64,000 nucleotides of DNA, taken from Planctomycetota bacterium (GTDB taxonomy: Bacteria > Planctomycetota > Phycisphaerae > Tepidisphaerales > Tepidisphaeraceae). The position numbers were made by a program, and so were the translations under genes. The notes under the pieces are model-generated. The model had not been told where the DNA came from, made no database searches, and saw nothing but the letters and a program-made list of their open reading frames with translations. This document shows, piece by piece, positions 16,201 through 59,824 of this stretch. Within the stretch, counting starts at the first letter, position 1; every line of letters begins with the position of its first letter. The stretch spans positions 21,474 through 85,473 of the forward strand of contig JAPLNB010000316.1 in assembly GCA_026693085.1 (NCBI GenBank). Direction: 5' to 3'.

Positions 16201-17631
16201 GGCGTAGAATCCGCTATGCTCGCCTATACCCGAACGGAGTGTATAAGCAGAGAATCCAATCAGGGCAGAAAGAAGAAGGATCGCGGCAAACCCGCCTCCC
16301 AGGGCGGCGGTTTTCTTTCGCCGCCGGTAGGAATCCACGTTGCCGACGCGGGTGACCAGGCCTTTCTCCGGGAAGACCTTCTCGATGAACAGGTCGCGGA
16401 GGAAGTAGGAGCGGACACGATCCCAACTGCGGCCCTTGGGCAAGTCGTTGACGGAAATGCCCAGGGCGGTGGCTAGTTCCGGGTCGTAGGGCGATCCCTT
16501 CTGGATGGACGAGGTGAAGTAGATGCCGCGGAGGAACAGGGGCTTCTGCGACCACGCACCAGCAACGAAGACGGTTTCCAGGTATTGCCGCAGCCGCGGG
16601 GCGATGCGGACCAGGTTATCTGGCAGGCCGTACAGGTTGTCCACCTGGTCGAGACGGCGGGGGGATCCATCGTCGGCCTTCATCGGTTCCAGCAGCAGCC
16701 GGAGCCGGCGCCGCAGGAGGCGCTGGCGGACGATCTCGAGGTGCTGATCGACCAGCTTGGGATCGAACTCCACGTCGAGCTTGGCGGGGTTGGACCACCC
16801 CAGCATCTGGTTTTGCCGCTGGGGATCGTCGATGCTATCGAAGAATTCGTTGAACCCGCCGATCAGGTCGCACTTGGTGATGACGACGAAGACGGGAAAG
16901 CGGATTCCCAGCGTGATCTGGACATGCTCGAACTGGGCGGCGATACGGCCGGCCTTGCGGCTGATCTCCTCCGAGGTGTCGGTGAGGAGCTTGTCGGCGG
17001 GAATCATCAGGAGCAGGCCATTGATGGGGCAGTGCGGGCGGCAGTGCTTGAGCAAGCCAAGGAACTCTTCCCACTCGCTGCCGGTGCCGGCGGGGATATC
17101 CTCGAACATCAGCCGCCCGGCGGTATCGAGAAGGACGGCATCGTGGCTGAACCACCAGTTCATGTTGACGGTGCCGCCGGAGCCCTGGAAGGGATCCTGG
17201 AGGCCGGGAATAAACCGGATCTGGGACCGGCGGATGGCCTCGCTCTTGCCGCCGGCGGGTTCTCCCACGAGCAGGAACCAGGGGGTGCTGTCGAGGCTAC
17301 GCCCCGCCTCGCGGAACTTGCGGACGGCCCCATCGAACTCCTTGCGCAGGGCGTCAAGCAGGGCAATCTGATCGACCTTGGAGATGGAGCCGGGGGTGCC
17401 TTGGGCGACTCGCTCGCCCAGGGCAGCGCCGAGTGCAGCGCCCCGCCGCCGTCGAAGCGAGTACAACCCCACCACCAGCATCGCTACGAAGACGAGGCCA
17501 GCCACCACGATGGCCACGAGCCGCCAGTCCCGGAATATGAGGTAGGCAAGCCCGATCGAGCCACAGGCGGCGGTGCCCATCCCACCCACCTTGGCCGGAA
17601 CAGGGAGGTCATTTAGGGTCGAGGATCTCAT
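13261..17631 (-). CDS. tssM: T6SS membrane-complex protein TssM (IcmF family)
   Basis: 1456 aa. N-terminal TM segments, Walker A 'LLVGEPAGGKSEAIRRS', 'AVLLDTAGR', 'FPVFVVITKCDLIGGFNEFF'. 4-nt ATGA overlap with tssL. Confidence 0.9.
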   Translation of the reverse strand: MRSSTLNDLPVPAKVGGMGTAACGSIGLAYLIFRDWRLVAIVVAGLVFVAMLVVGLYSLRRRRGAALGAALGERVAQGTPGSISKVDQIALLDALRKEFDGAVRKFREAGRSLDSTPWFLLVGEPAGGKSEAIRRSQIRFIPGLQDPFQGSGGTVNMNWWFSHDAVLLDTAGRLMFEDIPAGTGSEWEEFLGLLKHCRPHCPINGLLLMIPADKLLTDTSEEISRKAGRIAAQFEHVQITLGIRFPVFVVITKCDLIGGFNEFFDSIDDPQRQNQMLGWSNPAKLDVEFDPKLVDQHLEIVRQRLLRRRLRLLLEPMKADDGSPRRLDQVDNLYGLPDNLVRIAPRLRQYLETVFVAGAWSQKPLFLRGIYFTSSIQKGSPYDPELATALGISVNDLPKGRSWDRVRSYFLRDLFIEKVFPEKGLVTRVGNVDSYRRRKKTAALGGGFAAILLLSALIGFSAYTLRSGIGEHSGFYADKLKPALTPASRPAIVEPGPKYANAQITGMEQPTLLGVIQRSETLAKKPIYISPVFRYLALRKPNELEDRCKQAHALFVGATVMHPILGEVRSKMQKEPGATWSDEATTSLQSLIKLEMSASEAPPSPDLGPMMKYLFLSGPRADKEAALKDALALQGAWTQASDFAPLLKPPGLQIRGGTTAQNAVVKGIDAYIAYLESSGQKLDKAYTCASNLKTALADYHTALKSLTPVAGQTLTTWKDHETAAGEWSTKIGELGEKVTAIDNARVAWDEEPLKHWREQTSTTRPADTYARRVEACQERVKNLGDILALIPDEAKTPAWLISKRKHLETAKSTAEKLIETATKWRVDDAADDNGLAKLQACLEPPPSDEVTKFDMILAEFVKQAEQPTTQPKTKPARYHLYWQLLVRANNRLSAALNAEGDITKLESQLERLPAERNAVVKAFPSTEDPPATEAKAAFVFAIATLARPIEKYRFISTVLDNLPPAKDAKPWQALVSTLAGGQGAARTKIPLIAWNADDRFDAKFDPNSVKTIQAAWPLLDTHLSAKPPVIERDSLSEKLTQSKDDFEKSYKNAYTNYWRGQLKEGTNVTAKDWPGLRGDLIELQSNMTLASKGLTKLFVSVNEALKVIDRKLDAVDVAGQASLEDEAWMKQFGVMVEAWPKLDKDPLEASRNLRSSKSSKFRGTYYVTSDGFVQNYCRNLCVKALELIGRDSKDRIEAAVKAMEGLDAFPLVRRPGVRDLTTNELGKAKEQLIILGDSGKSDEADSLAKIGLENPRKDADIILINSAIENIRWTAGLNDKQNEYLKRVSKLLNALPDPQKSISCTISCRNSSALVPVAEHLKIEQGDASLVLNLHALNDKGSDLMKFKLPGKPLIFEFGFFVEPADKGEKNPKWKNTQPNASLPDPNKNGRMSNDWSLLHLMADGRAKKVDNPKPQEWCLEYLVQEGKAPLVLIFTFDANANITPLVDWLTGPDGN

Positions 17632-18359
17632 TTTGCCACCTTATCATTATCGATGATCTTCTGGCTCCAATCGGAAACGCCTTGAACCGCATCCGTAAGC
17701 GATTTAGACATTTCCCTGTACAGATAGGCGTTGACGATGAACAGAAGGAGGATCAGCCCGAGGAGCGCTACGCCGATGGGTGTCAGCGATCGAAGCGGCG
17801 GCGCCGTAAGGTTGTCCGCGATGAGCGATTCATACGCCTCCGGGCAGATGCGGGGCACGCCCTCGGGGTCCATCATACCCCTGATGCGCGCGGCGATTGC
17901 CTCTTTATGTTCGTGAACGACCTCGGGCTCATCCTCGTGCTGGCCGAGGAAGCCCAGGCCCATGCAGGTGTAGAAGACAGCCAGGCGCTCATTGACGGCG
18001 GCGACCTGTTCTCCCCTCGCCGGCTCCCCCATGGTCTTCTCCAACTCAAGAAAGAAACTCTGCTCCCCGGTGTAAATGGGCGGCGTCTCCTCCACAGCCA
18101 GTGGTTGCCACTGGCTGGCAAAAGGAAGAGGCCCGGTGCGGATGAAGTAGTCCACGGCGAACACCAGGGGAAGCCGGATCTTCTGGTACTGATCGGGCAG
18201 TCCCGGCGTGGAAAGGGAATTGACCCTGATGGATTCGAACAGGCCGCGGAGTTCGTGGCGGACCTGTTCCGCCTGCCCATGGGGACCGCTTGTGCGTGCC
18301 GAGCGGTTCAGGCGGCAGATGTATTGAAACAGCGGCTCGCACAGCTCGATCAGGGTCAT
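17628..18359 (-). CDS. tssL: T6SS membrane-complex protein TssL (DotU family, no PG-binding extension)
   Basis: 243 aa. 'LCEPLFQYICRL...LPLVFAVDYFI' DotU-like core and a C-terminal TM 'IGVALLGLILLLFIVNAYLY'. Lies between tssK and tssM. Confidence 0.85.
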   Translation of the reverse strand: MTLIELCEPLFQYICRLNRSARTSGPHGQAEQVRHELRGLFESIRVNSLSTPGLPDQYQKIRLPLVFAVDYFIRTGPLPFASQWQPLAVEETPPIYTGEQSFFLELEKTMGEPARGEQVAAVNERLAVFYTCMGLGFLGQHEDEPEVVHEHKEAIAARIRGMMDPEGVPRICPEAYESLIADNLTAPPLRSLTPIGVALLGLILLLFIVNAYLYREMSKSLTDAVQGVSDWSQKIIDNDKVAK

Positions 18360-18363
18360 GGCA

Positions 18364-19743
18364 TTACCTCGCCTGGGGGATGGTCATATACAGGGTGAAC
18401 ACGGCATCCGGAAACTTATCGGCGGGCCTAACGATGGCCACAGCGCGGTTGGGGTCATTGACGATGGCGTTCCAACGCTGCTCGCTATCGCCGGTGCGGT
18501 CCAGGCGGTAGTAGATCACCCCACCCTGGCGGAGCAGGCCGGGTGGCAGGTTGCGTTCCTCGATAAGGCGGACGCCGCGCACGAGGCGATTCTTCCACGC
18601 GTGAGCGATCAGCTTGAAGTTGTCCTGGTGCTGCACCAGTTCCGACAAGGCAGCGGGATCGCCCTGCGCGACGACGCCCAGATAGTAGGCATTGGGCTCC
18701 TTGAGCTGTTGCTCAGTGAGCCGGGCGACCAGCAGGCCCTCCTCCTCGGCGAATCGGGCCGCCCAGATGGGCTCGGGCACGGTATCCGCGATGATCGGGT
18801 CAATGCGGCGTTCGAGATCGAGGAAGACGGGTGCGGGATCGTCGTGGCGATACTGGGGGACATCAAACAGGCTGTCGGACTCCGGGTGAAGGGCAAGCAG
18901 CTCCGCCAGCAGGTCGCGCAGCTCGAGGTAGAAGAGGAACGGCGGAATTCCGGCCGTGGCGACCAGGGCAGGCAGGCGCGCGGCAAAGCGGTTCAGAACC
19001 CGCAGTCGGAGGAGCAGACCGAGCTGGGCCGGCTGAACCAACTTGAGGTTGAAGCCGGCTGCGCGAAGTTGGGGAACGAGCTCGTCGCGGCTGGCGACGA
19101 TCTTGTCCGCGATGGCCTTGACGATCCGGCGCAAGTCCCGAGAGCCGTCCAGCACCAGGCAAGGGGGAATGAAGTTTTCGTCGGGTATAGGGCGGCCCAC
19201 GGCGGCGCCGGCCGCCCGCTTGACTCGCAGGAGCGGCATTGTCTCAAACTCCCCCTCGAGTTCGCCGGCCACCAGGCGCGCGTTGATGCGGCGGATGGAA
19301 ACCGGGCGGGGGTTGGCGCCCGTGTTCTCGTCGTGCATCTCGGCATCCAGCGGCTGATAGAGCGCATCGGGCCGCCGTGGTTGCCCGTCGTTCTCGCAGG
19401 AGTTGGGGCGTCGTTCCTGCCAGACGGGAACGGCAAGGCTGATCAGAAGCGATCCGTCGGCCGCATCGAGTGCGGCCTTGATATCCAGCGGTTGCAGGTC
19501 GGCATTACCCGGAACCCTCACCTCGCGACCGCTACGGAGGATCACCCTCAGCCGGGCAAATTCCACGCGCCCGGTAGCCAGCGCCTCGTAGGACAGATCG
19601 GCCTCGATCACCCCATAGGGAAACGACCAGGCCAGCATGCGATCGCTGTCCATCCGGTCCAGCAGACGCCTCTGCATTACCTGGAGATGATGGGCCTCAA
19701 GGTACATCCCTTCACACCAATGGACCAGCTCGAAAGAAGCCAT
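18364..19743 (-). CDS. tssK: T6SS baseplate protein TssK
   Basis: 459 aa. The N-terminus 'VHWCEGMYLEAHHLQVMQRRL' matches the TssK 'W.eGm.L.pqHfQ' signature. Position is upstream of tssL. Confidence 0.9.
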   Translation of the reverse strand: MASFELVHWCEGMYLEAHHLQVMQRRLLDRMDSDRMLAWSFPYGVIEADLSYEALATGRVEFARLRVILRSGREVRVPGNADLQPLDIKAALDAADGSLLISLAVPVWQERRPNSCENDGQPRRPDALYQPLDAEMHDENTGANPRPVSIRRINARLVAGELEGEFETMPLLRVKRAAGAAVGRPIPDENFIPPCLVLDGSRDLRRIVKAIADKIVASRDELVPQLRAAGFNLKLVQPAQLGLLLRLRVLNRFAARLPALVATAGIPPFLFYLELRDLLAELLALHPESDSLFDVPQYRHDDPAPVFLDLERRIDPIIADTVPEPIWAARFAEEEGLLVARLTEQQLKEPNAYYLGVVAQGDPAALSELVQHQDNFKLIAHAWKNRLVRGVRLIEERNLPPGLLRQGGVIYYRLDRTGDSEQRWNAIVNDPNRAVAIVRPADKFPDAVFTLYMTIPQAR

Positions 19744-19758
19744 GGATCAGTCTCCACG

Positions 19759-20610
19759 CTAATGCCCCGACCCCTCGCTCTTCCGTTCTTCTATACACGC
19801 ATCGATAGCCTGGCGGATGGCCCGTTGCATCGGCGCCTCCTCCAGTTGAGGGGCCAGACGCTGGCTGTACACCTCCCAGCACCTGGCTTTGGCGTTCTTG
19901 AAAAACCCGCCCGCCTCCGCCTCCACCGCGGTTTCGATATTTTCCGGACGGAGCTTCATCAGGTGCTGCTCGCAAAGCTTGGATGCCACACCGGGCAGCG
20001 CGCTGGTTACCGCCATCGCCTTCTCGATTCTGTTCCGGAACTCGGCCAAGTTGGTCGTCAGAGATGAATCGCGTTCGTCTTTGAGGGACTGATCGACCAG
20101 TCGTTTCCACCCATCTCGCTGGCTGCTGGAGTCCACGGCCTGCACAAATTCGACGAACCTCTGCAGTGCCACCGCCACGCGGGGCAACTCAACCGGAGCA
20201 GGCAGGGGCTTGGCAGGTGGCGGCATTGGCGCGGGGCTACCGACGCGCCATGCCTCTCGCAATCGCTTCATGATCTCCTCCCGCTGGTTCGACGACAGCT
20301 TGGCCCCCTGCTCAATCACCCGCTGCAGCATGGAATCCAGATCCAATTCATCCGGTTTAACGGGCGCGCTGCCACCAGCCGCGTCACCCCAGGCAGGGAA
20401 ATGGCCGGACAGCTCGGCCAAGAACGCGCGACACTCCGAATTGGGAACGTCTTTCAAGGCGGCCATCAGCTCCCGATACAGGAACTCCTCGCGAGCTGCG
20501 CCATCCTCTTCGCTGCAATTGATCTGCACGAGGCGCAGCGCATTGGCGGTCGCGTTCACTCTCCGCAGTAGATCGTTCGACAAGGTGCCCAAAGCTGATT
20601 CTCCAGCCAA
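19759..20610 (-). CDS. Hypothetical T6SS-associated protein occupying the Fha/TagH slot, with no FHA domain
   Basis: 283 aa, protein-like composition, ends 16 nt before the tssK ATG. The start is a TTG without an obvious SD, so the start is uncertain. No FHA motif is seen. The C-terminal 'GGFFKNAKARCWEVYSQRL' weakly recalls the TagH C-terminal region (from memory). Confidence 0.55.
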   Translation of the reverse strand: MAGESALGTLSNDLLRRVNATANALRLVQINCSEEDGAAREEFLYRELMAALKDVPNSECRAFLAELSGHFPAWGDAAGGSAPVKPDELDLDSMLQRVIEQGAKLSSNQREEIMKRLREAWRVGSPAPMPPPAKPLPAPVELPRVAVALQRFVEFVQAVDSSSQRDGWKRLVDQSLKDERDSSLTTNLAEFRNRIEKAMAVTSALPGVASKLCEQHLMKLRPENIETAVEAEAGGFFKNAKARCWEVYSQRLAPQLEEAPMQRAIRQAIDACIEERKSEGSGH

Positions 20611-20929
20611 ATAGTCGAGCCCACAATTGGCCTAAAGGGCACAAGCATATATAGTCCCCTGAATCACCAATTGCAAGGTAGTGCGTTCGTGTTGCCGTAC
20701 AGGGTGCTGCATGATATCGGACGCCCCTTGCCGTGGCCTTGCCCGCATCCCGGCGTTCAGAGGTCCGATTACGCATAGCCCTTCCATATCCCGACCCGTG
20801 AGCGGAGAATGACCGGCAACCCAGGAATGGGCGTATCTCAAGTCATACCGATGAAAAGCCGATGCACGTCACGTATGGTGGCGGACAGCCGCCATTCAGT
20901 TGTCCTTAACTGGACAGAAGGATATAGCC

Positions 20930-21163
20930 ATGACGCGACGTTGGATCATCCTGACACTGGCGGCCGGTTCGGCGATTGTCCTGTGCAACGGGTGCGGCTC
21001 CAGCAGCCAGGCCCCCGCGGTCGGCGCCACCGGGTACAACTTCTCCCCCGGTCAACCTGTCGTGCTCAGTTCGGGCGACGCTATCGGCCGCCGCATGCAC
21101 GCCACTCAACGTTCCGGCCTGGCCGACAACGGCAGCGAGGCAACCGTCTCCATCAGGCCTTGA
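20930..21163 (+). CDS. Small putative secreted protein or lipoprotein (77 aa)
   Basis: ATG 20930 follows GAAGGA. Signal-like 'MTRRWIILTLAAGSAIVLCNGCGSS' has an imperfect lipobox. It is the only plus-strand ORF inside the island. The call is weak. Confidence 0.3.
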   Translation: MTRRWIILTLAAGSAIVLCNGCGSSSQAPAVGATGYNFSPGQPVVLSSGDAIGRRMHATQRSGLADNGSEATVSIRP

Positions 21164-21360: not shown

Positions 21361-24300
21361 TTATTTGGCTAAGACGTAGTTCGCCTTGGCAATGAATGTG
21401 CGGAGGGGGGATGTGGCGGGGGCGGCGCTGGCGCTAAAGGCGAGGCGGAAGCCGACGTCGGAGAATGCCTCAGGCCGGATCGCCCATGGGTTTCCGTTGA
21501 TCCTTTCAACACCTGAGGTGAGGTCTTTGGGGTCGGGCGCGGAAAGGGCGGACGCACCGATGATCAACAGTCTCACCTCTTTATTCTGAGGCTTCCCGTC
21601 CTCCCCGAGTGCCAACGGTTCATTCGTCACGAACTCGGCAACGTTCCCGATCAGATGATAGAAGTCGGTGGCCTTCCCAGGGTCTGGACAGACCTTGTCG
21701 AACCAGAGGGAACCATCCACGTAAGGCAGGCCCGGCCCTCCAGTTACGAATTTGCCGTTCAGGTTCTGGTCCCATATGTCGCCGGCAGCTTGGGGGTTGG
21801 ACGAGTACGAGCCTGAGCTTGGGTCGGGCGCGTTCAGCCAAGGGGGCTCAGCCTGCAGCAACTTTGGAACGTACTCGTGCTGTATCTGCCACACCGAGTC
21901 GCGCAGGTTCGGCTTTGCGCCGGGCGGCATCTTCTTTTCCGCCGCCTGCCATTCTTTTTCGGTCGGCAGGCGGCAGCCCAAGAGATCCGCAAGACGCACT
22001 GCTGCCTTAGAAGTAAGATACTGGATCGGGTGCTCACGTTCGGGGGGACCGCCAGGGGGCAACAGACCGTTGGCATCGCGCAAGTTCGGGGCATAGTAGT
22101 CGTTCTTCTCGCGATCCTGTCTGGGCATCCAGCCCTCTTTCTTCAATGGCTCCCTGATGGTTTGCTTGTCGAGAGACCAAGTGAGCACACTACTGCCGTC
22201 GCTCCACACACGTTGAATTTCATCCTTCTCGACTTGAGGCCACAACGCACGCGACGCCGTGTAGATATCCGCGAACAACCCCACGGACATTTCTGTGGTG
22301 CAGAGGTAGGCGCCCGGACCATGACCATCGGCCGTCTTGACGTGGCGGAAGAATAGTGTGTGTTTCTTGTTCTGGGGCGAAGACCAGGTGAACTCCAAGA
22401 CCCCGTCTTGCTCGTTCTTCTGAAGGGTCCACTTGACTTTGGCTTTTTCCGAAGCGGGGCCGGCGTCGGTCGGTTGACTGGACGGCGCAGTAGCGGGTCG
22501 CGTAGCCGGACCGTCGTTATTGAGGGCGGTCTTCAGTTCGCCCTTCAGCTTGCTGAGTGCCGAATCGTCCGGGGGCTCGTTCCCGTTCTCGATTAACTTC
22601 TTCATTAAATCCCCGACGACCTGCTTCAGTTTCTCGTCCGAGGCCTGTTTCAGGTTCTCGTCCGAGACCTGTTTCAGCAGCAGATCATGCCTAAGGTCGG
22701 CGGAAACATCCTTATCCTTCAGGGGCCATGGATCGTCATCAAGAAGAAAGCTCTTCTTGCTGGCAATCGCCGACTCCAAGTCCTTTAACGTATGAATGTT
22801 CGGCGCGCGCTTCGTCCAGAATCCCTTCACTTCCCTAAGGACATCCTCCTTTGCCTTGCCAACTAGCTCTTTGAGAAGCTGGCCTGCCAGGTCGAACTCC
22901 TCGCTGTTCTGGAAGCTGTCCTCAGACAATGCGTCAAGTCGGCGGAGCACAGCCAGCTTCACAGCCAGCTTCGCAGCGGGCTGCCGGTAGATTTCCGAGA
23001 GCGTCTTGCGATCAGTTTTGTCCGCGACCGTCTGCAGCAAAAGCTCGACTTGCGGCCAAATGGGGTTGCCGCTCAGTCCAAGCTTCACTTCATCGTCCTT
23101 GGCGATATTCTGGGCCATGTCAGTAACTTTTTTCTGTTCATCGGCAGGGAGGTACTGACCCGACAACCTCTGACAAATCAAGCTCCAGCCATCGCTTAGC
23201 GGTGTCAGCTTCTTATGCCACTCCTTGTATGCCGATTTCGCGGAAACGAACTTTTGCTCGAACCGGTTCGTCCAGTCCGCCAGCTTAGTCCAATCCGCGG
23301 GGGCGGGGACAAGTGATTTGGCCGCCTCGCTTCGCGCTGTATTCGCGAGGGTCTGGAACTCCTTCGGCCAGCCGTTCGTCGCAGCATCCTCAGAAGCCCA
23401 GGTTTCTAAATCCGTCAGGTTTTTGCCAGCCTCCTCCGCGGTCTTGATACTAGCCTCGTCTTGCGAGGACAGCCGCTTGACGTACGGTTCCCACTCTGGT
23501 TTTATCTTCAGCGCCTTGAACTCTATTTTGTCCAGAATTGCGATTCGTGCCGCAACGGTCCCACCAGCGATAGCCACATTAATCGAATCGGCCAGTTGCT
23601 TTATATTCGCATCGAGCGTCTTCAGCTCGCCTGGCCTTTCTCTAAGAGCTAGTTGACACGGCGATTTCCCTTTGATCTGGTTAAATGATAGACGGAGATT
23701 GGTATTCCGTTTCGCCAATTCGTCAATCTTCTCAGCCGCAACCTTACTCGTCTTAGCATTCTCAATCGATGCGTCGACTTGGGAAAACCGATTGCCAGGC
23801 CAGCCGGCGAGCATGTTGTCAAACCTCGTCTTCTCGTCGGGCTTCAATTTGCGGCATTCGTCAGCTAATGTCGTCCAACGCTGATACCGATCGCTCGGGC
23901 TCGTGGCAGGTTGTGTCGTCGCCAACTTGCGTTCAGCAAACACCACCCAATCGACCTCAAGCTTGCGATCTCCAACAACGTACGAGTGAATGTCACCAAT
24001 CGCCGTCCCGACTGTGCTCAGCTTTTTCTCAAGACTCCCAAGGTCATTTGCCCCGAGCAGTTCGTCTGCCATGAAGCCGGATAGTCCAGCAAGATCCGAA
24101 TCTCCTGGCCTGGCAAGAAGAACTTTCGCGATTTGGTCATTGATCTCCGTGCGCTTCTTACTCGACGTCGCAAGGCGATCGCGAAGACCCTGGACTGCGG
24201 CGGCGAGTTCGCTCGGTTTCATGTCGGACTTGAGCTTGCCATCGGGATCAATTCCCGGCCTTTCTGGAATGATGGTGCCCGCTCGGACCGAGTTGAATGC

Positions 24301-25767
24301 CTTCTGGGCAGCCTCCATCGACTCGGTGGCTTTGCTTAATTCATCAGCGAGCGCTCTGCATGCCTCCCCAAAGCCCTCCGCTGGCTGCGTGGCGGGAGCA
24401 GGTACAGTCACGGTGATGCCGAGGGACTTGGCAGCGTTCTCAAAGGCCATTCGCTTCTCGTTGATGCCCTTCCGCCACTTGACCATATCGTTACAGACGT
24501 CGGTGAGATTCTTGACGAGGGTTGCGGAAGCGATCAGACGATCAGCCGGGTGTTTGCTCTTGATGATGGCCGTCACGATTCCAGAGTCGCCGGGGACGGT
24601 CTCCGGGATGCTTGTCCGAGCATTCGACAGGTTGTTGCGAAAGGTATTTTCGTCGTCGCCGAAATCCACGCGATCCTTCAGCGTTCTCAGTTCCCCGACC
24701 AGCGCGGTGTCAAAGCTCTTCAATTCCTGCTCGAGATCCGGGATCTTGCTCTTGAGGTCAAGAACCGTGGTGATCTGAGCCGGCTGAACGATGCCATCCG
24801 GCGTTGGTTTGATGGTCGCTGCGACGAGCCTGCTGAGGCGCGGGTCTGACGACGTGACCGGCGTCCACGTCTTCGGGCTCAGGTCGCTTTTGGCCTTTGT
24901 CAGAGCTTCCCGCGCCATGTTGACTTCGCGCCGGATGCTGTGTCCTTTCCACTTGCCCGACCAGGAAAGTGAGATGGACTCAAACCAGGGCCCGGTCTGC
25001 TTCTTGCCGCCTTCTTTGTCAGACTCCCAGGGGGGCCGTTTAGCGCCACCCGACAACAGGCCAACATCTTCGCATTTGCCGATGATCAATTTGAGAGTGG
25101 GGTCACGTTCCCAGTTTTGGCGCGTACCCTCTTGAGCGACCAGTCGTGCGAATTCCCCGAACCAGGGATCATTTTTCAGGGAGGCCAGCGCGCTCCTGTC
25201 ACGCCACCCGACCAGCGCCTGGCCGATGAAATACCCGGCCAGCCCCATCACAAGGGCGATGATGAGCCAGCGAGGAGGGCGCGGCAGGCGGGGTTTCATC
25301 TCCTCCAGCGCCGCGACCAGGTCGGACAGCTTCGTCAGCCGCTGGGAGGCGTCGGGGTCCAGCAGGCGGCCGCAGAGGGAGCACCATGCGTCGACGTGTC
25401 GCCGCAGGCCGGTGAATAGCTTCGGGTCGATCGGATAGTTGAAGATCTTGTCAAACTGTTTATGCGTAACCAGGCGGAAGATCAGCAGGCCCAGCGCATA
25501 CAGGTCGTCGGCTTCCGATGCCGGCGCTATACCCGGCGGGTCGGCCAAAGCAACCCCTGCACGCGACAGCCGCCGCGGCCCGGAGATTAGGATGGTCGCT
25601 GGACTCAGATTGCCGTGGGCTCGCCCGCGAGTCCTGATGAGCTGGTCCAACCCCGCCGCCCCGCCGCTGATCAGGTTGTGCAAGGCGGCGTGTTTCAGCT
25701 CAACGCCGTACTCGAGCAGCCACTCGGCGGACTTTTCGTAGCCTTGGATGGAGCGGGAACTGGCCAT
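21361..25767 (-). CDS. PpkA-slot pseudokinase remnant (C-lobe only), TM, helical ectodomain, C-terminal FGE-sulfatase-like domain (1468 aa)
   Basis: 'RAHGNLSPATILI' replaces HRDLKPxN and 'LSRAGVAL' replaces DFG (nt ~25555-25617). 'EADDLYALGLLIFRLV' is subdomain IX-like. There is no Gly-loop or VAIK and no space for them, because the tssJ-like stop lies 41 nt upstream. TM 'WLIIALVMGLAGYFIGQALVGW' (~25205-25275). FGE-like 'GAYLCTTEMSVGLFADIY' (22261-22320), 'IGNVAEFV', 'IIGASAL', 'FSDVGFRLAFS'. The ectodomain is paralogous to 8742..13064. Confidence 0.75.
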   Translation of the reverse strand: MASSRSIQGYEKSAEWLLEYGVELKHAALHNLISGGAAGLDQLIRTRGRAHGNLSPATILISGPRRLSRAGVALADPPGIAPASEADDLYALGLLIFRLVTHKQFDKIFNYPIDPKLFTGLRRHVDAWCSLCGRLLDPDASQRLTKLSDLVAALEEMKPRLPRPPRWLIIALVMGLAGYFIGQALVGWRDRSALASLKNDPWFGEFARLVAQEGTRQNWERDPTLKLIIGKCEDVGLLSGGAKRPPWESDKEGGKKQTGPWFESISLSWSGKWKGHSIRREVNMAREALTKAKSDLSPKTWTPVTSSDPRLSRLVAATIKPTPDGIVQPAQITTVLDLKSKIPDLEQELKSFDTALVGELRTLKDRVDFGDDENTFRNNLSNARTSIPETVPGDSGIVTAIIKSKHPADRLIASATLVKNLTDVCNDMVKWRKGINEKRMAFENAAKSLGITVTVPAPATQPAEGFGEACRALADELSKATESMEAAQKAFNSVRAGTIIPERPGIDPDGKLKSDMKPSELAAAVQGLRDRLATSSKKRTEINDQIAKVLLARPGDSDLAGLSGFMADELLGANDLGSLEKKLSTVGTAIGDIHSYVVGDRKLEVDWVVFAERKLATTQPATSPSDRYQRWTTLADECRKLKPDEKTRFDNMLAGWPGNRFSQVDASIENAKTSKVAAEKIDELAKRNTNLRLSFNQIKGKSPCQLALRERPGELKTLDANIKQLADSINVAIAGGTVAARIAILDKIEFKALKIKPEWEPYVKRLSSQDEASIKTAEEAGKNLTDLETWASEDAATNGWPKEFQTLANTARSEAAKSLVPAPADWTKLADWTNRFEQKFVSAKSAYKEWHKKLTPLSDGWSLICQRLSGQYLPADEQKKVTDMAQNIAKDDEVKLGLSGNPIWPQVELLLQTVADKTDRKTLSEIYRQPAAKLAVKLAVLRRLDALSEDSFQNSEEFDLAGQLLKELVGKAKEDVLREVKGFWTKRAPNIHTLKDLESAIASKKSFLLDDDPWPLKDKDVSADLRHDLLLKQVSDENLKQASDEKLKQVVGDLMKKLIENGNEPPDDSALSKLKGELKTALNNDGPATRPATAPSSQPTDAGPASEKAKVKWTLQKNEQDGVLEFTWSSPQNKKHTLFFRHVKTADGHGPGAYLCTTEMSVGLFADIYTASRALWPQVEKDEIQRVWSDGSSVLTWSLDKQTIREPLKKEGWMPRQDREKNDYYAPNLRDANGLLPPGGPPEREHPIQYLTSKAAVRLADLLGCRLPTEKEWQAAEKKMPPGAKPNLRDSVWQIQHEYVPKLLQAEPPWLNAPDPSSGSYSSNPQAAGDIWDQNLNGKFVTGGPGLPYVDGSLWFDKVCPDPGKATDFYHLIGNVAEFVTNEPLALGEDGKPQNKEVRLLIIGASALSAPDPKDLTSGVERINGNPWAIRPEAFSDVGFRLAFSASAAPATSPLRTFIAKANYVLAK

Positions 25768-25808: not shown

Positions 25809-26351
25809 TCAATCCTTCGCGGGATTGGGAGTTGGCACGATATGCATCGGCACGCCGACGGGCGAGATTGTGATGCTGATGGTGATCGGGTCGCTCCACC
25901 GCTTCTTATCCAGTGGCAGGATGCAGATCCGCGTGTCTTTCATGTCTTTCTCGTCCTTCGATGCTGGCAGGTTGGCCAGGACCACCAGCCACTTTGCCCC
26001 ATACTTCTCCCAGTTCGCCCAGATGGGGTTGTCCGCGGCAAGGACCATGGCCGGCTGCTTGTCTTTGTCCAATATCATCTCCTTCACGACGTTGTTCCGC
26101 TCTTTCGCCGCCCTCAGCAGATTGCCCGCTTTGAACCAATCGTCAACCAGCCCCAGCCCCTTCGTATTGAACCTTTCGAGATCATCGCCATCCGTGACAC
26201 CAACCAAGTGGACGCGAACCGAGGGCTGGCTGATCTCGCGATCCAGGGCCACACTGATATCCGACGGCGGCCGAGTGGGGCCGTTGCACGCGGCAGACAT
26301 CATCGTAAGGGCCAGGACCACGAATCTCACGGGAATTTTTGTCGCAGTCAT
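25809..26351 (-). CDS. tssJ: Outer-membrane lipoprotein, probable TssJ
   Basis: Lipobox 'LALTMMSAAC'. 'SVRVHLVGVTDGDDLERF' and 'AKWLVVLANLP...RICILPL' resemble the SciN/TssJ pattern (from memory). It is the only candidate for the otherwise missing 13th core gene. GGAG lies 8 nt before ATG 26351; the ORF track starts at GTG 26357. Confidence 0.55.
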   Translation of the reverse strand: MTATKIPVRFVVLALTMMSAACNGPTRPPSDISVALDREISQPSVRVHLVGVTDGDDLERFNTKGLGLVDDWFKAGNLLRAAKERNNVVKEMILDKDKQPAMVLAADNPIWANWEKYGAKWLVVLANLPASKDEKDMKDTRICILPLDKKRWSDPITISITISPVGVPMHIVPTPNPAKD

Positions 26352-26457
26352 ACGCACACTCCGGGAGTAAGATTAACTCGCCCTGTGCCCGCGCCCGGCG
26401 GGCGCGGGAAGGAGCACCGGGCTGGAAATGGCGACTCAGACATCCACCGTGGCCGGT

Positions 26458-28575
26458 TCAGTTCCGGTCCGGCGGCGCGGCGGGCGAATCGCCGAGTTCC
26501 GCCGCGCATCTGGCAATGACGCGCTGCACCTCGCGGTTCACGCGCCAGTCCACGACAATCAGGCTTCGAACGCGTCGCAACTGCTGCTGCAGCTCAGCAA
26601 TCGAGGGCTCGAACACTTTGTGGATGGTCCCGACCGGCGCTGCGCCGTAGCTGCGGCAGGCACTGTCCGGACCCATCGCCGGGATCATCCGCACGATGGC
26701 CGCCAGCACCTCGAACCACACCGCGGACGGGACCAGAATGAACGCCTCGTCCGGCGAGGTCGGTTCGCGGGTGAGCTGCTGCGGCCCGAGGTGTTCTACC
26801 CAGCGGGGGTCGGTACGGAACAGATCGGCAATGCGATCGGCCAGCGGGCGTGATTCATCGGGCATGATCGCCAGTTGCCTGGCCAGGCTCAGAATCTTGT
26901 CCATGGCGACGGCATGCGTGACGCCGGGTCCCACCAGGAGGAGGCGGACCGCCAGCACGGCCAGGGCGTAGAGGTCGCAGGGCGAGCTAAGCACAGGGAG
27001 GAGCTCGAACACCACGCCGCGGATCTCGGCCCCCTCGGCGGCGCGCAGCTTCACCATGATGCCCGGTTCGAACTGCTGAGGCACGGTTCGCAGCCGCCAC
27101 TCGCCATGCGCCATGGCAGCCTCATCGCACACCTTGGCATAGAGGGCGATGCGGGCATCGGCCAGGCTCAGTTGCAGGCGTAGGAAATCGCTGGGTGTCG
27201 GGTCGATGGCAGCCCGGGTCGTGAAGGTCACATCGATCACGATGCCGCCTCCGGGATCGGATTGGATGCGCGGTATCCTTGCTGAGCCTGTGCCCAGCGT
27301 GTAGGCATTCACGGGCGGCCGGTAGATCGGGGGAATGTATCGTTGGGACGGCAGGAAGTACTCGGACTGGCTGCCGGGCAAGACCACCGGAATAGCGTCG
27401 CTCGGATTGTTCAGGATAGCCTTGGCGGTCCAGAAGAAGGGGAGCGCCGCGGCCGGCTCATCGAAGCGGACACTGAAACTGTCGGCGGTGAGGCCGAGGA
27501 ACGGCCTCTGGAGGCGCCGCACCGTCGCATAGGCTGCTTCAACGGCGTCGTGGAGCAGGCGAAGCTTGATGAACAGAACCTCCAGGAGCCTCCCTCGCCG
27601 TCCTTCGTGGGCCGCCAGGAATCCCTCGGCGCCGGCGGTGCCGACTCCGCCGGCCTTCAGCCGCGCCGCCAGCCCGCCGGGATCGATCTCGCCTCTCCCG
27701 TGCGACATCCCGTCCCAGGAAGCCCCAGTCAGCACATCCATGAACACATCCATGCGCATGGGGCTGAAGGCGCGGACAAGCATCAGTCCGCCACCCGGAT
27801 TGAAGGGGACCAAGCCGTGCTTGCCATCCGTCAGTTCGGACGACGGCCGGGTGTCGGCGTTGACTGGTGCGTTCTCGGTGAGGGGGATGAACGGCGAGGC
27901 TGCCCCCGCCGCCTTCAGGCACAGGTAGCGGTGCAGCGAAGAGGAGTATGGGGGAAGGCCCTTGGCCGCCAACAGCGCATCGTCCTGGCACAGGGCCCAC
28001 AGCTCGCCCGAGCCCGCGTCCCGGGGCACCAGGGGCTCGCGGGCCTGCAGGTCCAGAAGGACAGGGGCCGGGTGCGACGATTCCCACCCCACGCGAACGA
28101 CCCCGTGGGGGTCCAACTGCTCCAGGGCCATGGCCTGTTCCACCCAGCGAGCATCCAGGACGGCATTGGAGAGGGATTCGCGGTAGGTCAGCAGGGACCC
28201 GGCCAGCCCGCCAACATCCTGCACCCAGATTTCGACCCACTGGCGTACCCAGCACGCCGCATCGACGATGCAGCCGAGGAACGCTCGCCCGTCGGTCATC
28301 TCCCGGAGGACGACCAGGTGTCCGGCCACGGGATCGGCCACTTCCTTGACCAGCGCGCATAGCCGCAGGGAGGCCGCCTGCTGATCGGGGCAGACTACAA
28401 TCGCGACATACCCCGCGGGAAGATCGGTTGGTAGTTGCTTGATGGCCGTTTCACCCATGACTTTCCTGACACTCAAGGGCACCTGTCGAAACACCGGCCC
28501 GTCGAGACGGCCGCGAAGCCAGATCTGATTCTTGCAGGCCAATCCGAATTCTACGGGTAAGTTGAGCCCTGTCAA
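26458..28575 (-). CDS. Large hypothetical protein (705 aa) between PAAR and the tssJ-like gene
   Basis: Long ORF with protein-like composition, whereas the antisense ORFs are R/G/P-rich. TTG start, uncertain. No signal peptide or TM seen. 'PFLGLTADSFSV' and 'SSPCDLYALAVLAVRLLL' weakly resemble kinase catalytic-loop and subdomain IX remnants. Confidence 0.6.
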   Translation of the reverse strand: MTGLNLPVEFGLACKNQIWLRGRLDGPVFRQVPLSVRKVMGETAIKQLPTDLPAGYVAIVVCPDQQAASLRLCALVKEVADPVAGHLVVLREMTDGRAFLGCIVDAACWVRQWVEIWVQDVGGLAGSLLTYRESLSNAVLDARWVEQAMALEQLDPHGVVRVGWESSHPAPVLLDLQAREPLVPRDAGSGELWALCQDDALLAAKGLPPYSSSLHRYLCLKAAGAASPFIPLTENAPVNADTRPSSELTDGKHGLVPFNPGGGLMLVRAFSPMRMDVFMDVLTGASWDGMSHGRGEIDPGGLAARLKAGGVGTAGAEGFLAAHEGRRGRLLEVLFIKLRLLHDAVEAAYATVRRLQRPFLGLTADSFSVRFDEPAAALPFFWTAKAILNNPSDAIPVVLPGSQSEYFLPSQRYIPPIYRPPVNAYTLGTGSARIPRIQSDPGGGIVIDVTFTTRAAIDPTPSDFLRLQLSLADARIALYAKVCDEAAMAHGEWRLRTVPQQFEPGIMVKLRAAEGAEIRGVVFELLPVLSSPCDLYALAVLAVRLLLVGPGVTHAVAMDKILSLARQLAIMPDESRPLADRIADLFRTDPRWVEHLGPQQLTREPTSPDEAFILVPSAVWFEVLAAIVRMIPAMGPDSACRSYGAAPVGTIHKVFEPSIAELQQQLRRVRSLIVVDWRVNREVQRVIARCAAELGDSPAAPPDRN

Positions 28576-46822: not shown

Positions 46823-46874
46823 AACAGACCCGACCTCCCGTAATGGATCGCTCTTTGCTACTGCGGCTGCCGGC

Positions 46875-59680: not shown

Positions 59681-59824
59681 GGCTTTCCTCGAAGAGCACT
59701 CAGGAATTGATTGTGTCCGCACTTCCTAAATGAACCCTATCGATCCCGAAACGAGCTTCCGAGCATACGGGCCGCGGTGCTTTTGCCACAGCCGGCTCGA
59801 TCTTCCAGGACCAACGCGCATTCA

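What the first reader, a model, noticed from the sequence alone, without database searches (positions are those of the whole stretch)
21361..25767. C-lobe-only pseudokinase fused to a paralogous FGE-sulfatase-like ectodomain in the PpkA position
The N-terminal 160 aa align to Hanks subdomains VIb-XI only. 'AHGNLSPATILI' lacks the catalytic Asp, Lys and Asn; 'RAG' replaces DFG; 'DDLYALGLLIF' is subdomain IX; 'LLDPDASQRL' is subdomain XI.

The ATP-binding N-lobe cannot be present, because the tssJ-like stop lies 41 nt upstream of the ATG.

After the TM helix, the ectodomain ends in an FGE-like fold clearly paralogous to that of 8742..13064. Compare 'HPIQYLTSKAAVRLADLLGCRLPTEKEW' with 'HPMQQVSISAAAYMASLLHCRLPTVDEW', and 'LRDSVWQIQHEY' with 'LRDRTWRIQNEH'. 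A dead kinase retained next to a T6SS suggests a scaffold or receptor role.
Basis: partly seen in the sequence, partly recalled or inferred. Interest (0 to 1): 0.75.

Follow-up and report, generated by a model that had tools for sequence, protein, structure and literature searches.

The report
Half-kinase membrane protein of T6SS
A large membrane protein in a Planctomycete type VI secretion gene cluster keeps only the rear half (C-lobe) of an already dead protein-kinase domain; its many relatives keep both halves, which shows that this uncharacterised secretion-system accessory family does not need a working kinase.

Summary
ORF 21361..25767 (-) encodes 1468 aa. Residues 1-165 are the C-lobe of a divergent Hanks-type kinase-like domain, residues 168-186 are one TM helix, then comes a roughly 900-aa periplasmic region, and residues 1099-1468 are an FGE-sulfatase-like domain paralogous to that of 8742..13064 (30% identity, E 2e-30).

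An exhaustive search found 577 relatives. About 130 of the 152 listed carry 80-110 extra N-terminal residues, the N-lobe. The family profile hits solved Ser/Thr kinases (StkP, 9e-11). An AlphaFold model of residues 1-165 (pLDDT 90) matches only kinase domains.

The whole family looks catalytically dead. HRD is replaced by HGN in 81% of members, DFG by D-P, and there is no Gly-loop. Only the window's small clade has also lost the N-lobe; this is seen in four independent assemblies, so it is not an assembly artefact.

One correction: A75-D76-P77, not 'RAG', is the DFG equivalent.

The gene belongs to a module conserved across Planctomycetota, Verrucomicrobiota and Sumerlaeota: 705-aa orphan, lipoprotein, this protein, 283-aa protein, TssK, TssL, TssM, TagF-TM-FGE.

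The most likely role is a phosphorylation-independent scaffold or receptor of the T6SS membrane complex. This is inferred, not shown. I rate it a new variant of a known kind, of moderate to high interest.

The parts
21361..25767 (-). Whole gene. It encodes a 1468-aa bitopic membrane protein: kinase C-lobe, one TM helix, a long periplasmic region and an FGE-like domain.
   Evidence: ORF list. Orthologues P0002 and P0003 are 65-66% identical and have the same start.
25273..25767 (-). Residues 1-165: cytoplasmic orphan C-lobe of a Hanks-type kinase-like domain (alphaD to alphaI).
   Evidence: phmmer found 577 relatives, most matched from their residue ~95. The family C-lobe HMM scores E 7.7e-41. 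The AF2 model has pLDDT 90.3. The Foldseek top 50 are all kinase domains.
25585..25620 (-). AHGNLSPATILI (residues 50-61): degenerate catalytic loop. HRD has become HGN, the loop Lys is Ser55, and the loop Asn is Thr58.
   Evidence: The family profile aligns HGNLKPSN on HRDLKPQN of StkP.
25537..25545 (-). A75-D76-P77: the true DFG equivalent. The Asp is kept, and Phe-Gly is replaced by Pro-Pro.
   Evidence: Alignments A2 and A3. Family frequencies are D 97% and P 92%. Strand beta8 at 71-74 immediately precedes it in the model.
25477..25509 (-). DDLYALGLLIF (residues 87-97): subdomain IX / alphaF. D88 is invariant in the family.
   Evidence: Invariant column in A2 and A3. Helix 85-101 in the model.
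25336..25365 (-). LLDPDASQRL (residues 135-144): subdomain XI-like end of the alphaH helix.
   Evidence: Family consensus is LCNRLLDP; W128 and C132 are invariant.
25210..25266 (-). Residues 168-186, LIIALVMGLAGYFIGQALV: the single transmembrane helix. The preceding RLPRPPRW implies an N-in, C-out orientation.
   Evidence: Hydropathy scan, mean Kyte-Doolittle score 2.17. Orientation follows the positive-inside rule and is an inference.
22474..25209 (-). Residues 187-1098: long periplasmic region with no recognised domain. It evolves fast and carries large in-frame indels between orthologues.
   Evidence: Pfam gives only sub-threshold hits. Alignment A1 shows the indels. dN/dS is 0.8-1.4.
21364..22473 (-). 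Residues 1099-1468: FGE-sulfatase-like domain, paralogous to the C-terminus of 8742..13064. No cysteine lies at the position of the FGE catalytic Cys pair (GASALSAP, residues 1404-1411).
   Evidence: BLASTP E 2e-30. Pfam PF03781 scores 20.9 bits for the target, 24.6 for the paralogue, and up to E 6e-12 in relatives. The family profile hits FGE/SUMF1 at 2e-4.
25809..26357 (-). 182-aa lipoprotein (lipobox ..MSAAC). It lies immediately upstream in all related loci and is a possible TssJ analogue.
   Evidence: ORF and sequence. Synteny. No Pfam hit. dN/dS is 1.28.
26458..28575 (-). 705-aa conserved orphan protein (p705). It is the most constant neighbour of the pseudokinase gene.
   Evidence: tblastn finds it in about 24 of the 33 loci of full-length relatives, L004-L036, plus 659- and 670-aa genes at the same position in L037 and L038 (assigned by position and length only). 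No Pfam or PDB hit even as a profile. dN/dS is 0.18.
19759..20610 (-). 283-aa protein between the target and tssK. It has only a weak resemblance to the C-terminal domain of T6SS Fha and has no FHA domain.
   Evidence: Pfam T6SS_FHA_C at E 0.024; 2 of 10 orthologues hit.
13261..19743 (-). tssK (18364..19743), tssL (17628..18359) and tssM (13261..17631). The periplasmic part of TssM is not the canonical one.
   Evidence: Pfam and NCBIfam.
8742..13064 (-). 1440-aa paralogue: an N-terminal region with sub-threshold TagF similarity (E 0.02-0.04, below both curated cut-offs), a TM helix at 592-610, and a C-terminal FGE-like domain.
   Evidence: Pfam and NCBIfam. Hydropathy. BLASTP.

Best explanation
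The gene encodes an N-lobe-deleted member of a previously undescribed family of T6SS-associated, single-pass inner-membrane proteins. The family is found in Planctomycetota, Verrucomicrobiota and Sumerlaeota.

The family architecture is: a cytoplasmic Hanks-type pseudokinase domain, one TM helix, about 900 aa of periplasmic region, and a C-terminal non-catalytic FGE-like domain. It looks like a PpkA-type receptor kinase that no longer phosphorylates. The catalytic Asp is Asn, DFG is D-P, there is no Gly-loop, and the activation segment is cut down to about 10 residues.

In the window's lineage the decay went further. The closest full-length orthologue has already lost the beta3 Lys and the loop Lys and Asn. 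The window clade then deleted the whole N-lobe. What remains is a KIND-like orphan C-lobe that keeps every family-invariant residue.

Inferred mechanism:
- The C-lobe is a phosphorylation- and nucleotide-independent docking surface for cytoplasmic T6SS partners. Candidates are the always-adjacent 705-aa protein, the 283-aa Fha_C-like protein, and the cytoplasmic parts of TssL, TssM and TagF.
- The periplasmic FGE-like domain pairs with, or acts beside, its paralogue on the TagF-TM-FGE protein, the TssM periplasmic domain and the lipoprotein.
- The protein would thereby couple the envelope side of the membrane complex to baseplate assembly.

What is shown: identity, architecture, N-lobe loss, family-wide catalytic degeneration and T6SS linkage. 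What is inferred: the binding partners, and whether the role is scaffold or sensor.
For: **Homology and truncation.**
- 577 relatives were found.
- About 130 of the 152 listed have 80-110 extra N-terminal residues.
- The N-lobe HMM hits the control L005 at 2.9e-13 but nothing in the window or in L001-L003.

**Kinase relationship.**
- Family profile versus PDB: StkP 9.4e-11, then PknI, PknB, PknA and ULK.
- Pfam Pkinase hits 15 of 30 members; the NCBIfam MADS6 kinase model hits 18 of 30.
- AF2 pLDDT is 90.3 and Foldseek returns only kinases.

**Dead kinase family-wide.**
- The catalytic position is N in 81% and D in 3%.
- D-P replaces DFG.
- There is no GxGxxG motif.

**Not an artefact.** The same start and the same 41-nt gap appear in four assemblies, with an in-frame stop 5 codons upstream.

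**The C-lobe is retained.** All six family-invariant residues (H51, G52, D88, L99, W128, C132) and eleven near-invariant ones are kept. The C-lobe is 88-93% identical among the three orthologues, against 62-70% for the FGE-like domain.

**T6SS linkage.** The module is conserved in L001-L003, L005-L006, L010-L011, L016, L024, L026-L032, L034, L037 and L038.

**No phospho-signalling partners.** No Pkinase, PP2C or FHA domain was found in any scanned ORF of the window.

**Stepwise decay.** P0004 has beta3 K->R, and in the catalytic loop K->R and N->S.

**Precedents.**
- The membrane pseudokinase YukC is a central hub of T7SSb (10.1101/2020.05.09.085852).
- The FGE fold is reused as a docking hub in PorK of T9SS (PMC12421860).
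- Eukaryotic KIND domains are C-lobe-only interaction modules (PMC2064798, PMC5928657).
Against:
- dN/dS of the C-lobe is only moderately low: 0.35 and 0.62 against the window, and 1.05 between the two sister contigs, based on few substitutions. Relaxed constraint on the remnant cannot be excluded.
- The high AF2 confidence is driven by an alignment of full-length relatives. It does not prove that an isolated C-lobe is stable.
- Most of the periplasmic part has dN/dS near 1. Taken alone that would fit decay, although intact ORFs of 1393-1516 codons in three lineages argue against it.
- The family keeps the beta3 Lys (95%), the loop Asn (95%) and the DFG Asp (97%). Full-length members may still bind nucleotide or even have atypical activity, so 'phosphorylation-independent family' is not proven.
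Confidence: 0.6

Rival explanations
1. The cytoplasmic remnant is functionless. The protein works only through its periplasmic part, and the C-lobe survives merely as a folded N-terminal cap that gives the right membrane topology.
For: C-lobe dN/dS is 0.35-1.05, higher than for TssK (0.07) or p705 (0.18). The lineage shows progressive loss of kinase features.
Against: The C-lobe is the most conserved part of the protein: 88-93% identical, against 62-70% for the FGE-like domain and 65-71% for the middle region. It keeps all six family-invariant and eleven near-invariant residues. A clean deletion removed exactly the N-lobe and left the C-lobe intact in all three orthologues.
Confidence: 0.15
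2. The protein is mainly an envelope sensor, a PpkA/TagQRST-like signal receiver. The FGE-like domain binds a ligand such as a cell-wall fragment, incoming-attack damage or a partner lipoprotein. It transmits a conformational signal through the TM helix to the C-lobe, which relieves repression by TagF.
For: The architecture mirrors receptor kinases. A paralogous FGE-like domain sits on a protein whose N-terminal region shows only sub-threshold TagF similarity. Periplasmic parts show dN/dS of about 1 or more while the ORFs stay intact, as expected for surfaces in an arms race or in co-evolution.
Against: There is no evidence for a ligand. The TagF assignment of the paralogue is weak (E 0.02-0.04, below cut-off). 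The FGE fold is also used purely structurally, as in PorK (PMC12421860). This reading overlaps with the best explanation rather than excluding it.
Confidence: 0.2
3. The apparent truncation is an artefact: a wrong start, a frameshift or a misassembly. Alternatively, the kinase is split and the N-lobe is encoded as a separate gene.
For: The NCBI annotation of the identical MAG protein uses a different start, 28 codons downstream. This shows that the start is not trivial to call.
Against: An in-frame stop lies 5 codons upstream, and a conserved lipoprotein gene ends 41 nt upstream. Four independent assemblies show the same structure. The N-lobe HMM finds nothing in six frames of the 64-kb window or of L001-L003, while it detects the control at 2.9e-13.
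Confidence: 0.03
4. The FGE-like domains are T6SS immunity modules. FGE-like proteins are a described family of T6SS immunity proteins, and these domains might have nothing to do with the apparatus.
For: FGE-like periplasmic proteins have been reported as widespread T6SS immunity proteins (10.1101/2021.05.21.445229; title and abstract seen). The domains evolve fast.
Against: Here the domain is the C-terminus of 1400-aa proteins fused to kinase-like or (weakly) TagF-like cytoplasmic domains. These sit in fixed synteny with tssK, tssL and tssM across three phyla. They are not next to variable effector genes downstream of vgrG or PAAR.
Confidence: 0.04

Closest known systems
PpkA, the Hanks-type Ser/Thr kinase of the T6SS threonine-phosphorylation pathway (Pseudomonas aeruginosa H1-T6SS, Agrobacterium tumefaciens; PMC3953482)
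   Same: Bitopic inner-membrane protein with an N-terminal cytoplasmic Hanks-type domain and a periplasmic C-terminal domain. It is encoded in the T6SS membrane-complex and regulatory block together with tagF, tssM, tssL and tssK.
   Different: - The kinase domain is catalytically degenerate in the whole family and reduced to the C-lobe here.
- The periplasmic domain is FGE-like rather than von Willebrand A (my knowledge of PpkA).
- No PppA phosphatase and no FHA-domain protein were found in the window.
YukC/EssB, the membrane pseudokinase of the type VIIb secretion system (10.1101/2020.05.09.085852)
   Same: Single-pass membrane protein of a secretion apparatus. Its cytoplasmic pseudokinase domain serves as an interaction hub rather than an enzyme.
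   Different: It belongs to a different secretion system and phylum (Firmicutes T7SSb). YukC keeps a two-lobed pseudokinase fold. No sequence relationship was detected here: it is absent from the 60 listed PDB matches and from the Foldseek top 50.
[quoted passage not shown]
   Same: A protein-kinase C-lobe that exists without an N-lobe and acts as a protein-protein interaction module.
   Different: KIND is eukaryotic and of independent origin. No Pfam KIND hit was found even at E<=10. The present domain was derived recently from a bacterial pseudokinase whose full-length relatives are still extant.
Bacterial Ser/Thr kinases fused to FGE-sulfatase domains, and non-enzymatic FGE-fold proteins such as PorK/GldK of T9SS (PMC12421860)
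   Same: The combination of a kinase-like domain with an extracytoplasmic FGE-sulfatase-fold domain. In PorK, the FGE fold is reused as a structural docking hub in a secretion machine.
   Different: Here the two domains are separated by about 900 residues, the kinase is dead or halved, and the association is with T6SS. That Pkinase+FGE-sulfatase is a common architecture rests on my own knowledge and was not tested.

Membership tests
Protein kinase-like superfamily (Hanks-type fold) | Significant profile similarity to bona fide protein kinase domains | tested here: met
   The target links to the family at E 4e-28 to 1e-11. The family profile hits StkP at 9.4e-11, and all 60 listed PDB matches are kinase or kinase-like. 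Pfam Pkinase hits 15 of 30 members. The target alone gives no hit.
Protein kinase-like superfamily (Hanks-type fold) | C-lobe fold (alphaD-alphaE, catalytic loop, beta7/beta8, alphaF-alphaI) | tested here: met
   The AF2 model has pLDDT 90.3 and the expected element order. The Foldseek top 50 are all kinase domains, probability 1.00, TM 0.57-0.67 on the query.
Protein kinase-like superfamily (Hanks-type fold) | N-lobe (Gly-rich loop, beta3 Lys, alphaC) | tested here: not met
   The protein starts at the beta5/hinge position of its relatives. There is no N-lobe HMM hit in six frames of the window.
Active Ser/Thr kinase (PpkA-type) | Catalytic loop HRDxKxxN with Asp, Lys and Asn | tested here: not met
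   The loop reads H51-G52-N53-L-S55-P-A-T58. All three residues are replaced.
Active Ser/Thr kinase (PpkA-type) | DFG motif and an activation segment ending in APE | tested here: not met
   The motif is A75-D76-P77-P78. Only 12 residues separate D76 from the subdomain IX Asp D88, against about 36 in PKA (PKA numbering is from my own knowledge).
Active Ser/Thr kinase (PpkA-type) | Partner FHA-domain protein and PP2C phosphatase (PppA) in the cluster | tested here: not met
   No FHA, PP2C or Pkinase Pfam hit was found in the 37 scanned ORFs of the window. The 283-aa neighbour has only a weak T6SS_FHA_C hit. Small ORFs and the 2785-aa ORF were not scanned.
Active Ser/Thr kinase (PpkA-type) | ATP binding or autophosphorylation | not testable with these tools
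   This needs biochemistry. It is structurally implausible without an N-lobe.
FGE-sulfatase (PF03781) fold family | Profile match above the curated threshold | tested here: inconclusive
   The target scores 20.9 bits against a cut-off of 23.3. The paralogue scores 24.6, and relatives reach E 6.4e-12. The family profile hits FGE/SUMF1, CalU17 and EgtB at 2e-4 to 2e-2. Homology of the family is supported; the target alone is sub-threshold.
Formylglycine-generating enzyme (catalytic FGE) | Catalytic cysteine pair in the GGSYxCxxxxC region | tested here: not met
   The equivalent stretch is IIGASALSAPDPKD (from residue 1402). No Cys occurs between 1402 and 1444, and the family consensus is VIGGSALSPP. 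The residue correspondence rests on a low-scoring alignment plus the known motif.
KIND domain | Sequence membership (Pfam/SMART KIND profile) | tested here: not met
   No Pfam family hit residues 1-193 even at E<=10. KIND is an analogue, not a relative.
PVC-type T6SS accessory module (proposed here) | Conserved synteny: p705, lipoprotein, pseudokinase-TM-FGE, p283, tssK, tssL, tssM, TagF-TM-FGE | tested here: met
   The window, L001-L003 and L038 show the full order. L005/6, L010/11, L016, L024, L026-L032, L034 and L037 show it in part.

The most novel reading that the evidence does not exclude
The pseudokinase-TM-FGE protein, its TagF-TM-FGE paralogue, the lipoprotein, the non-canonical TssM periplasmic domain and the 705-aa orphan together form a T6SS membrane complex specific to Planctomycetota, Verrucomicrobiota and relatives. 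In it, FGE-fold domains would build the periplasmic or outer part, as PorK does in T9SS, replacing the canonical TssJ-TssM tip. That part is under diversifying selection. Assembly would be controlled by a phosphorylation-free pseudokinase (here a KIND-like half-kinase) instead of the PpkA/PppA/Fha switch.
Probability: 0.2. Interest if true: 0.8.

Novelty: new variant of a known kind. Interest (0 to 1): 0.62.

Why it matters
T6SS regulation by PpkA, PppA, Fha and TagF is a textbook case of bacterial Ser/Thr phospho-signalling. This work points to a large, unannotated family: 577 representatives at 50% clustering, labelled 'hypothetical' or 'FGE' by the source databases. It occupies the analogous place in T6SS clusters of Planctomycetota, Verrucomicrobiota and Sumerlaeota, but its kinase domain looks dead.

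The window's lineage provides a natural deletion experiment. The ATP-binding lobe is dispensable, while the C-lobe keeps every invariant residue. That points to the C-lobe as the functional interaction surface. It would also be a bacterial counterpart of the eukaryotic KIND domain.

The finding also flags several uncharacterised core-linked genes: the 705-aa orphan, the lipoprotein and the TagF-TM-FGE fusion. It shows a sharp split in evolutionary rate between cytoplasmic and periplasmic parts. Both are testable leads on how T6SS is built in bacteria with unusual envelopes.

Tried and rejected
- Searches with the N-terminal 193 aa alone against Pfam (E<=10) and PDB sequences gave nothing meaningful; the best hit was MarR at E about 1.
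- AF2 on the single sequence gave a useless model, pLDDT 41.
- The word-indexed homologue search found only three close relatives. Only the exhaustive representative search opened up the family.
- The first locus search with the 30-sequence alignment failed for lack of a conserved stretch. A six-sequence alignment worked.
- I suspected that the 705-aa neighbour, which has a 'CDLYALAVLAVRLL' motif, might be a second kinase-like protein or might supply an N-lobe. BLASTP to the C-lobe, a 14-sequence profile against the PDB and Pfam scans of all members were negative. The N-lobe HMM did not hit it. The idea was rejected.
- I tried to firm up the 283-aa protein as an FHA-less Fha. Only 2 of 10 orthologues give a weak T6SS_FHA_C hit and the PDB profile search is empty. 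This is left as a hint only.
- The C-terminal domain alone against the PDB was negative. A profile was needed.
- Three literature searches found no description of a Planctomycete or Verrucomicrobial T6SS pseudokinase.

Full report
**1. The observation**

The ORF at 21361..25767 on the minus strand exists and encodes 1468 aa. The quoted motifs are at residues 50-61 (AHGNLSPATILI), 87-97 (DDLYALGLLIF) and 135-144 (LLDPDASQRL).

The upstream 182-aa ORF (25809..26357) has a lipoprotein signal (..LTMMSAAC). It stops 41 nt before the ATG. An in-frame TGA lies five codons upstream of the ATG, so there is no room for more coding sequence.

The C-terminal 370 residues are 30% identical (E 2e-30) to the C-terminus of the 1440-aa product of 8742..13064.

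**2. Context**

The window is a complete type VI secretion cluster of a Planctomycetota MAG. The identical protein is NCBI 'hypothetical protein NTU53_18860'.

Along the minus strand the cluster reads:
- sigma factor, TssA, TssB, two TssC, TagJ, TssE, TssF, TssG, ClpV
- Hcp, VgrG, several unknown genes
- a 705-aa orphan (p705), the lipoprotein, the target, a 283-aa protein
- TssK, TssL, TssM
- the 1440-aa protein with a weak TagF-like N-terminus and an FGE-like C-terminus

No scanned ORF carries a Pkinase, PP2C or FHA domain.

**3. Is the N-terminus a kinase C-lobe?**

Alone, it hits nothing in Pfam even at E<=10, or in PDB sequences. The only hint was a sub-threshold NCBIfam match to the MADS6 kinase (E 0.022).

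An exhaustive phmmer search of 1.84 billion representative proteins with residues 1-165 found 577 relatives at E<=1e-3, and 152 at E<=1e-10. In about 130 of the 152 listed, the match begins at residue 80-110 of the relative. They therefore carry an extra N-terminal segment of N-lobe size.

The family consensus reads like a degenerate Hanks domain:
`M..FG.YE..EL.R......AR ... FVVK ... FL..A..QQ ... HWAPIHE.G...GAYYVTDYYPRS..KLI ... GL.ELK...GR.HGNLKPSNVLI ... V.LTDPAP ... DL.ALGELIYQLV ... W..LCNRLLDP`

Several independent tests support the kinase relationship:
- A 30-sequence profile of the full domain hits 364 PDB sequences at E<=1, and all 60 listed matches are kinase or kinase-like. The best are StkP (9.4e-11), PknI, PknB, PknA and ULK1/2. 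HGNLKPSN is aligned on HRDLKPQN.
- Pfam Pkinase is hit by 15 of 30 members individually.
- The NCBIfam MADS6 kinase model is hit by 18 of 30 members.
- AlphaFold2 on target residues 1-165, with a 55-sequence alignment, gave pLDDT 90.3 and pTM 0.86. The element order is alphaD, alphaE, beta7, beta8, alphaF, alphaG/H, alphaI.
- The Foldseek top 50 PDB matches to that model are all protein-kinase catalytic domains: Mnk1, BRAF, PknS, PknB, PknI and RIPK. Probability is 1.00 and TM is 0.57-0.67 on the query.

**4. One correction**

In the family alignment and in the model, beta8 is G71-V72-A73-L74 and is followed by A75-D76-P77-P78. This lines up with 'V-K-L-A-D-F-G' of kinases.

D76 and P77 are near-invariant family positions (D 97%, P 92%). 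The metal-binding Asp is therefore retained.

Only 12 residues separate D76 from the subdomain IX Asp (D88). The activation segment, P+1 loop and APE region are essentially absent in the whole family.

**5. The whole family is a predicted pseudokinase**

Statistics for 123 representatives with a complete domain:

| Position | Residue frequency |
|---|---|
| beta3 Lys | K 95% |
| Catalytic loop H | H 98% |
| Catalytic loop G | G 100% |
| Catalytic position | N 81%, D only 3% |
| Loop Lys | K 83% |
| Loop Asn | N 95% |
| DFG equivalent | D-P |
| Gly-rich loop | no GxGxxG |

The strong conservation of Lys, Asn and Asp suggests that full-length members may still bind nucleotide or metal. That is an inference.

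The target has H-G-N-L-S-P-A-T, so the loop Lys and Asn are also gone. The closest full-length orthologue is P0004 (1732 aa, 43% identical in the C-lobe, same synteny in L005 and L006). It already has beta3 K->R, loop K->R and loop N->S. The picture is a stepwise decay that ends with loss of the N-lobe.

**6. Not an artefact, and clade-specific**

Orthologues P0002 (66% identical) and P0003 (65%) come from three further independent assemblies (two ENA, one JGI). They start with the same MASSR.. and show the same 41-nt gap after the lipoprotein gene.

An HMM of the family's N-lobe detects the control P0004 at 2.9e-13. It finds nothing (best E 2.2) in all six frames of the window or of L001-L003.

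The few other 'short' hits are mostly fragments that lack a start Met.

NCBI's annotated start, 28 codons downstream, is probably wrong. Residues 1-28 are conserved in the orthologues, and homology to the family extends to residue ~9.

**7. The rest of the protein**

There is one TM helix at 168-186, preceded by RLPRPPRW, which suggests an N-in orientation.

Residues 187-1098 have no recognised domain and carry large in-frame indels between orthologues.

For residues 1099-1468:
- The Pfam FGE-sulfatase hit is just below threshold in the target (20.9 bits against 23.3). It is above threshold in the paralogue, and reaches E 6e-12 in relatives.
- 60 of the 97 relatives longer than 1000 aa have the same C-terminal domain.
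- A 13-sequence profile hits human and bacterial FGE, CalU17, EgtB and OvsA, at E from 2e-4.
- The stretch equivalent to the FGE catalytic Cys pair (GGSYxCxxxxC) reads IIGASALSAPDPKD and contains no cysteine. The domain is most likely non-enzymatic; this is inferred from a weak alignment plus the known motif.

The paralogue 8742..13064 is also bitopic, with a TM helix at 592-610. Its N-terminus resembles TagF only weakly.

**8. A conserved T6SS module**

A scan of one genome per species returned 30 loci. They come from Phycisphaerae (Sedimentisphaerales, Tepidisphaeraceae, Phycisphaerales), Planctomycetaceae, Chthoniobacterales and other Verrucomicrobia, and Sumerlaeota. Single contigs are labelled Anaerolineales and Myxococcota.

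tblastn with the window's proteins shows the recurring order p705, lipoprotein, pseudokinase-TM-FGE, p283, TssK, TssL, TssM, TagF-FGE. Two further contexts (L037, L038) confirm it.

p705 is the most constant neighbour. It remains an orphan even when searched as a profile. Source databases name family members 'hypothetical protein' or 'formylglycine-generating enzyme'. I found no paper describing this family.

**9. Evolutionary rates**

These are Nei-Gojobori pairwise estimates for the window against L001. They split cleanly by compartment.

| Component | Compartment | dN/dS |
|---|---|---|
| TssK | cytoplasmic | 0.07 |
| p705 | cytoplasmic | 0.18 |
| Hcp | cytoplasmic | 0.24 |
| TagF-like N-terminal part | cytoplasmic | 0.27 |
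| Target C-lobe | cytoplasmic | 0.35 |
| TssM 1-460 | cytoplasmic | 0.38 |
| p283 | cytoplasmic | 0.41 |
| Target 166-330 | TM helix and periplasmic | 1.38 |
| Target 331-1098 | periplasmic | 0.81 |
| Target FGE-like domain | periplasmic | 0.96 |
| TssM 461-1456 | periplasmic | 1.30 |
| Lipoprotein | periplasmic | 1.28 |

The ORFs stay intact over 1393-1516 codons despite about 35% amino-acid divergence. Simple decay is therefore unlikely. Diversifying selection, or co-evolution of a shared periplasmic assembly, fits better.

The estimates are crude: they are pairwise, dS is low, and recombination is possible. The C-lobe's own dN/dS ranges from 0.35 to 1.05 between pairs, on few substitutions, so its constraint is moderate rather than strong. 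Even so, it retains all six family-invariant residues (H51, G52, D88, L99, W128, C132) and eleven near-invariant ones.

**10. Interpretation**

Shown:
- The protein is an N-lobe-deleted member of a T6SS-linked pseudokinase-TM-FGE-like family.
- It cannot be an ATP-dependent kinase.

Inferred:
- The C-lobe acts as a docking module for cytoplasmic T6SS partners, and the FGE-like domain engages the periplasmic part of the membrane complex and its paralogue. The protein would then be a phosphorylation-independent scaffold or receptor.

Precedents:
- The membrane pseudokinase YukC is the hub of T7SSb (10.1101/2020.05.09.085852).
- PorK of T9SS reuses the FGE fold as a docking hub (PMC12421860).
- Eukaryotic KIND domains are C-lobe-only interaction modules (PMC2064798, PMC5928657).

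Rivals are listed separately: a vestigial remnant, a primarily sensory role, an immunity function, and a split kinase encoded elsewhere.

**11. Verdict**

Novelty: a new variant of a known kind, namely a receptor pseudokinase, here halved, in an undescribed T6SS accessory family.

Interest is moderate to high. The half-kinase itself is a clade-specific curiosity. It does, however, expose a widespread, unannotated, probably phosphorylation-free PpkA analogue, and several uncharacterised core-linked T6SS genes in Planctomycetota and Verrucomicrobiota.

Noticed in passing
window 13261..16250 (TssM residues 461-1456), 25809..26357 (lipoprotein), 21364..25272 (target residues 166-1468): Periplasmic parts of the membrane-complex genes show pairwise dN/dS of about 0.8-1.4 against the sister contig L001. 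Cytoplasmic parts of the same cluster show 0.07-0.41. All ORFs stay intact. This suggests diversifying selection or co-evolution of a shared periplasmic assembly.
   Followed up: partly
window 26458..28575 (-): A 705-aa conserved orphan protein, called as about 666 aa in the sister contigs. It is the most constant neighbour of the pseudokinase gene across phyla and is under strong purifying selection (dN/dS 0.18). It has no Pfam or PDB similarity even as a 14-sequence profile.
   Followed up: partly
window 8742..13064 (-): A 1440-aa protein with a weak TagF-like N-terminus, a TM helix at residues 592-610 and a C-terminal FGE-like domain. It would be a membrane-anchored TagF fusion that puts a T6SS repressor-like domain on a periplasm-reaching protein. 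The same gene follows tssM in related loci.
   Followed up: partly
window 19759..20610 (-): A 283-aa protein conserved between the pseudokinase gene and tssK. It shows only a weak T6SS_FHA_C match (E 0.024; 2 of 10 orthologues) and has no FHA domain. It may be an Fha-like adaptor that has lost phosphothreonine reading.
   Followed up: partly
window 20900..21163 (+): A small opposite-strand ORF with a lipoprotein-like signal (MTRRWIILTLAAGSAIVLCNGC). A 75-86-aa opposite-strand gene is called at the same position in L001, L002, L003, L005, L006 and L038.
   Followed up: no
window 41208..43901 (-): The TssF ORF (426 aa) covers only positions 1-333 of the 608-position Pfam profile. The following TssG ORF (426 aa) starts matching its profile at residue 74. 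This may be a frameshift, a split or a fusion of tssF and tssG.
   Followed up: no
window 13261..17631 (-): TssM is 1456 aa, but only residues 40-463 match the canonical TssM/IcmF models. The roughly 1000-aa periplasmic part is not the canonical one, and no TssJ family lipoprotein is recognised.
   Followed up: no
window 25684..25767 (-): The NCBI annotation of the identical MAG protein starts 28 codons downstream, at Met29. Conservation in orthologues and homology to the family support the upstream ATG at 25767.
   Followed up: yes
window 51365..61960 (-): A giant 2785-aa ORF lies next to a ShlB/FhaC-type (TpsB) outer-membrane transporter gene (59825..61960). This is probably a two-partner secretion system beside the T6SS cluster.
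   Followed up: no
window 45257..48377 (-): Two tandem full-length TssC (VipB) sheath paralogues of 500 and 521 aa.
   Followed up: no
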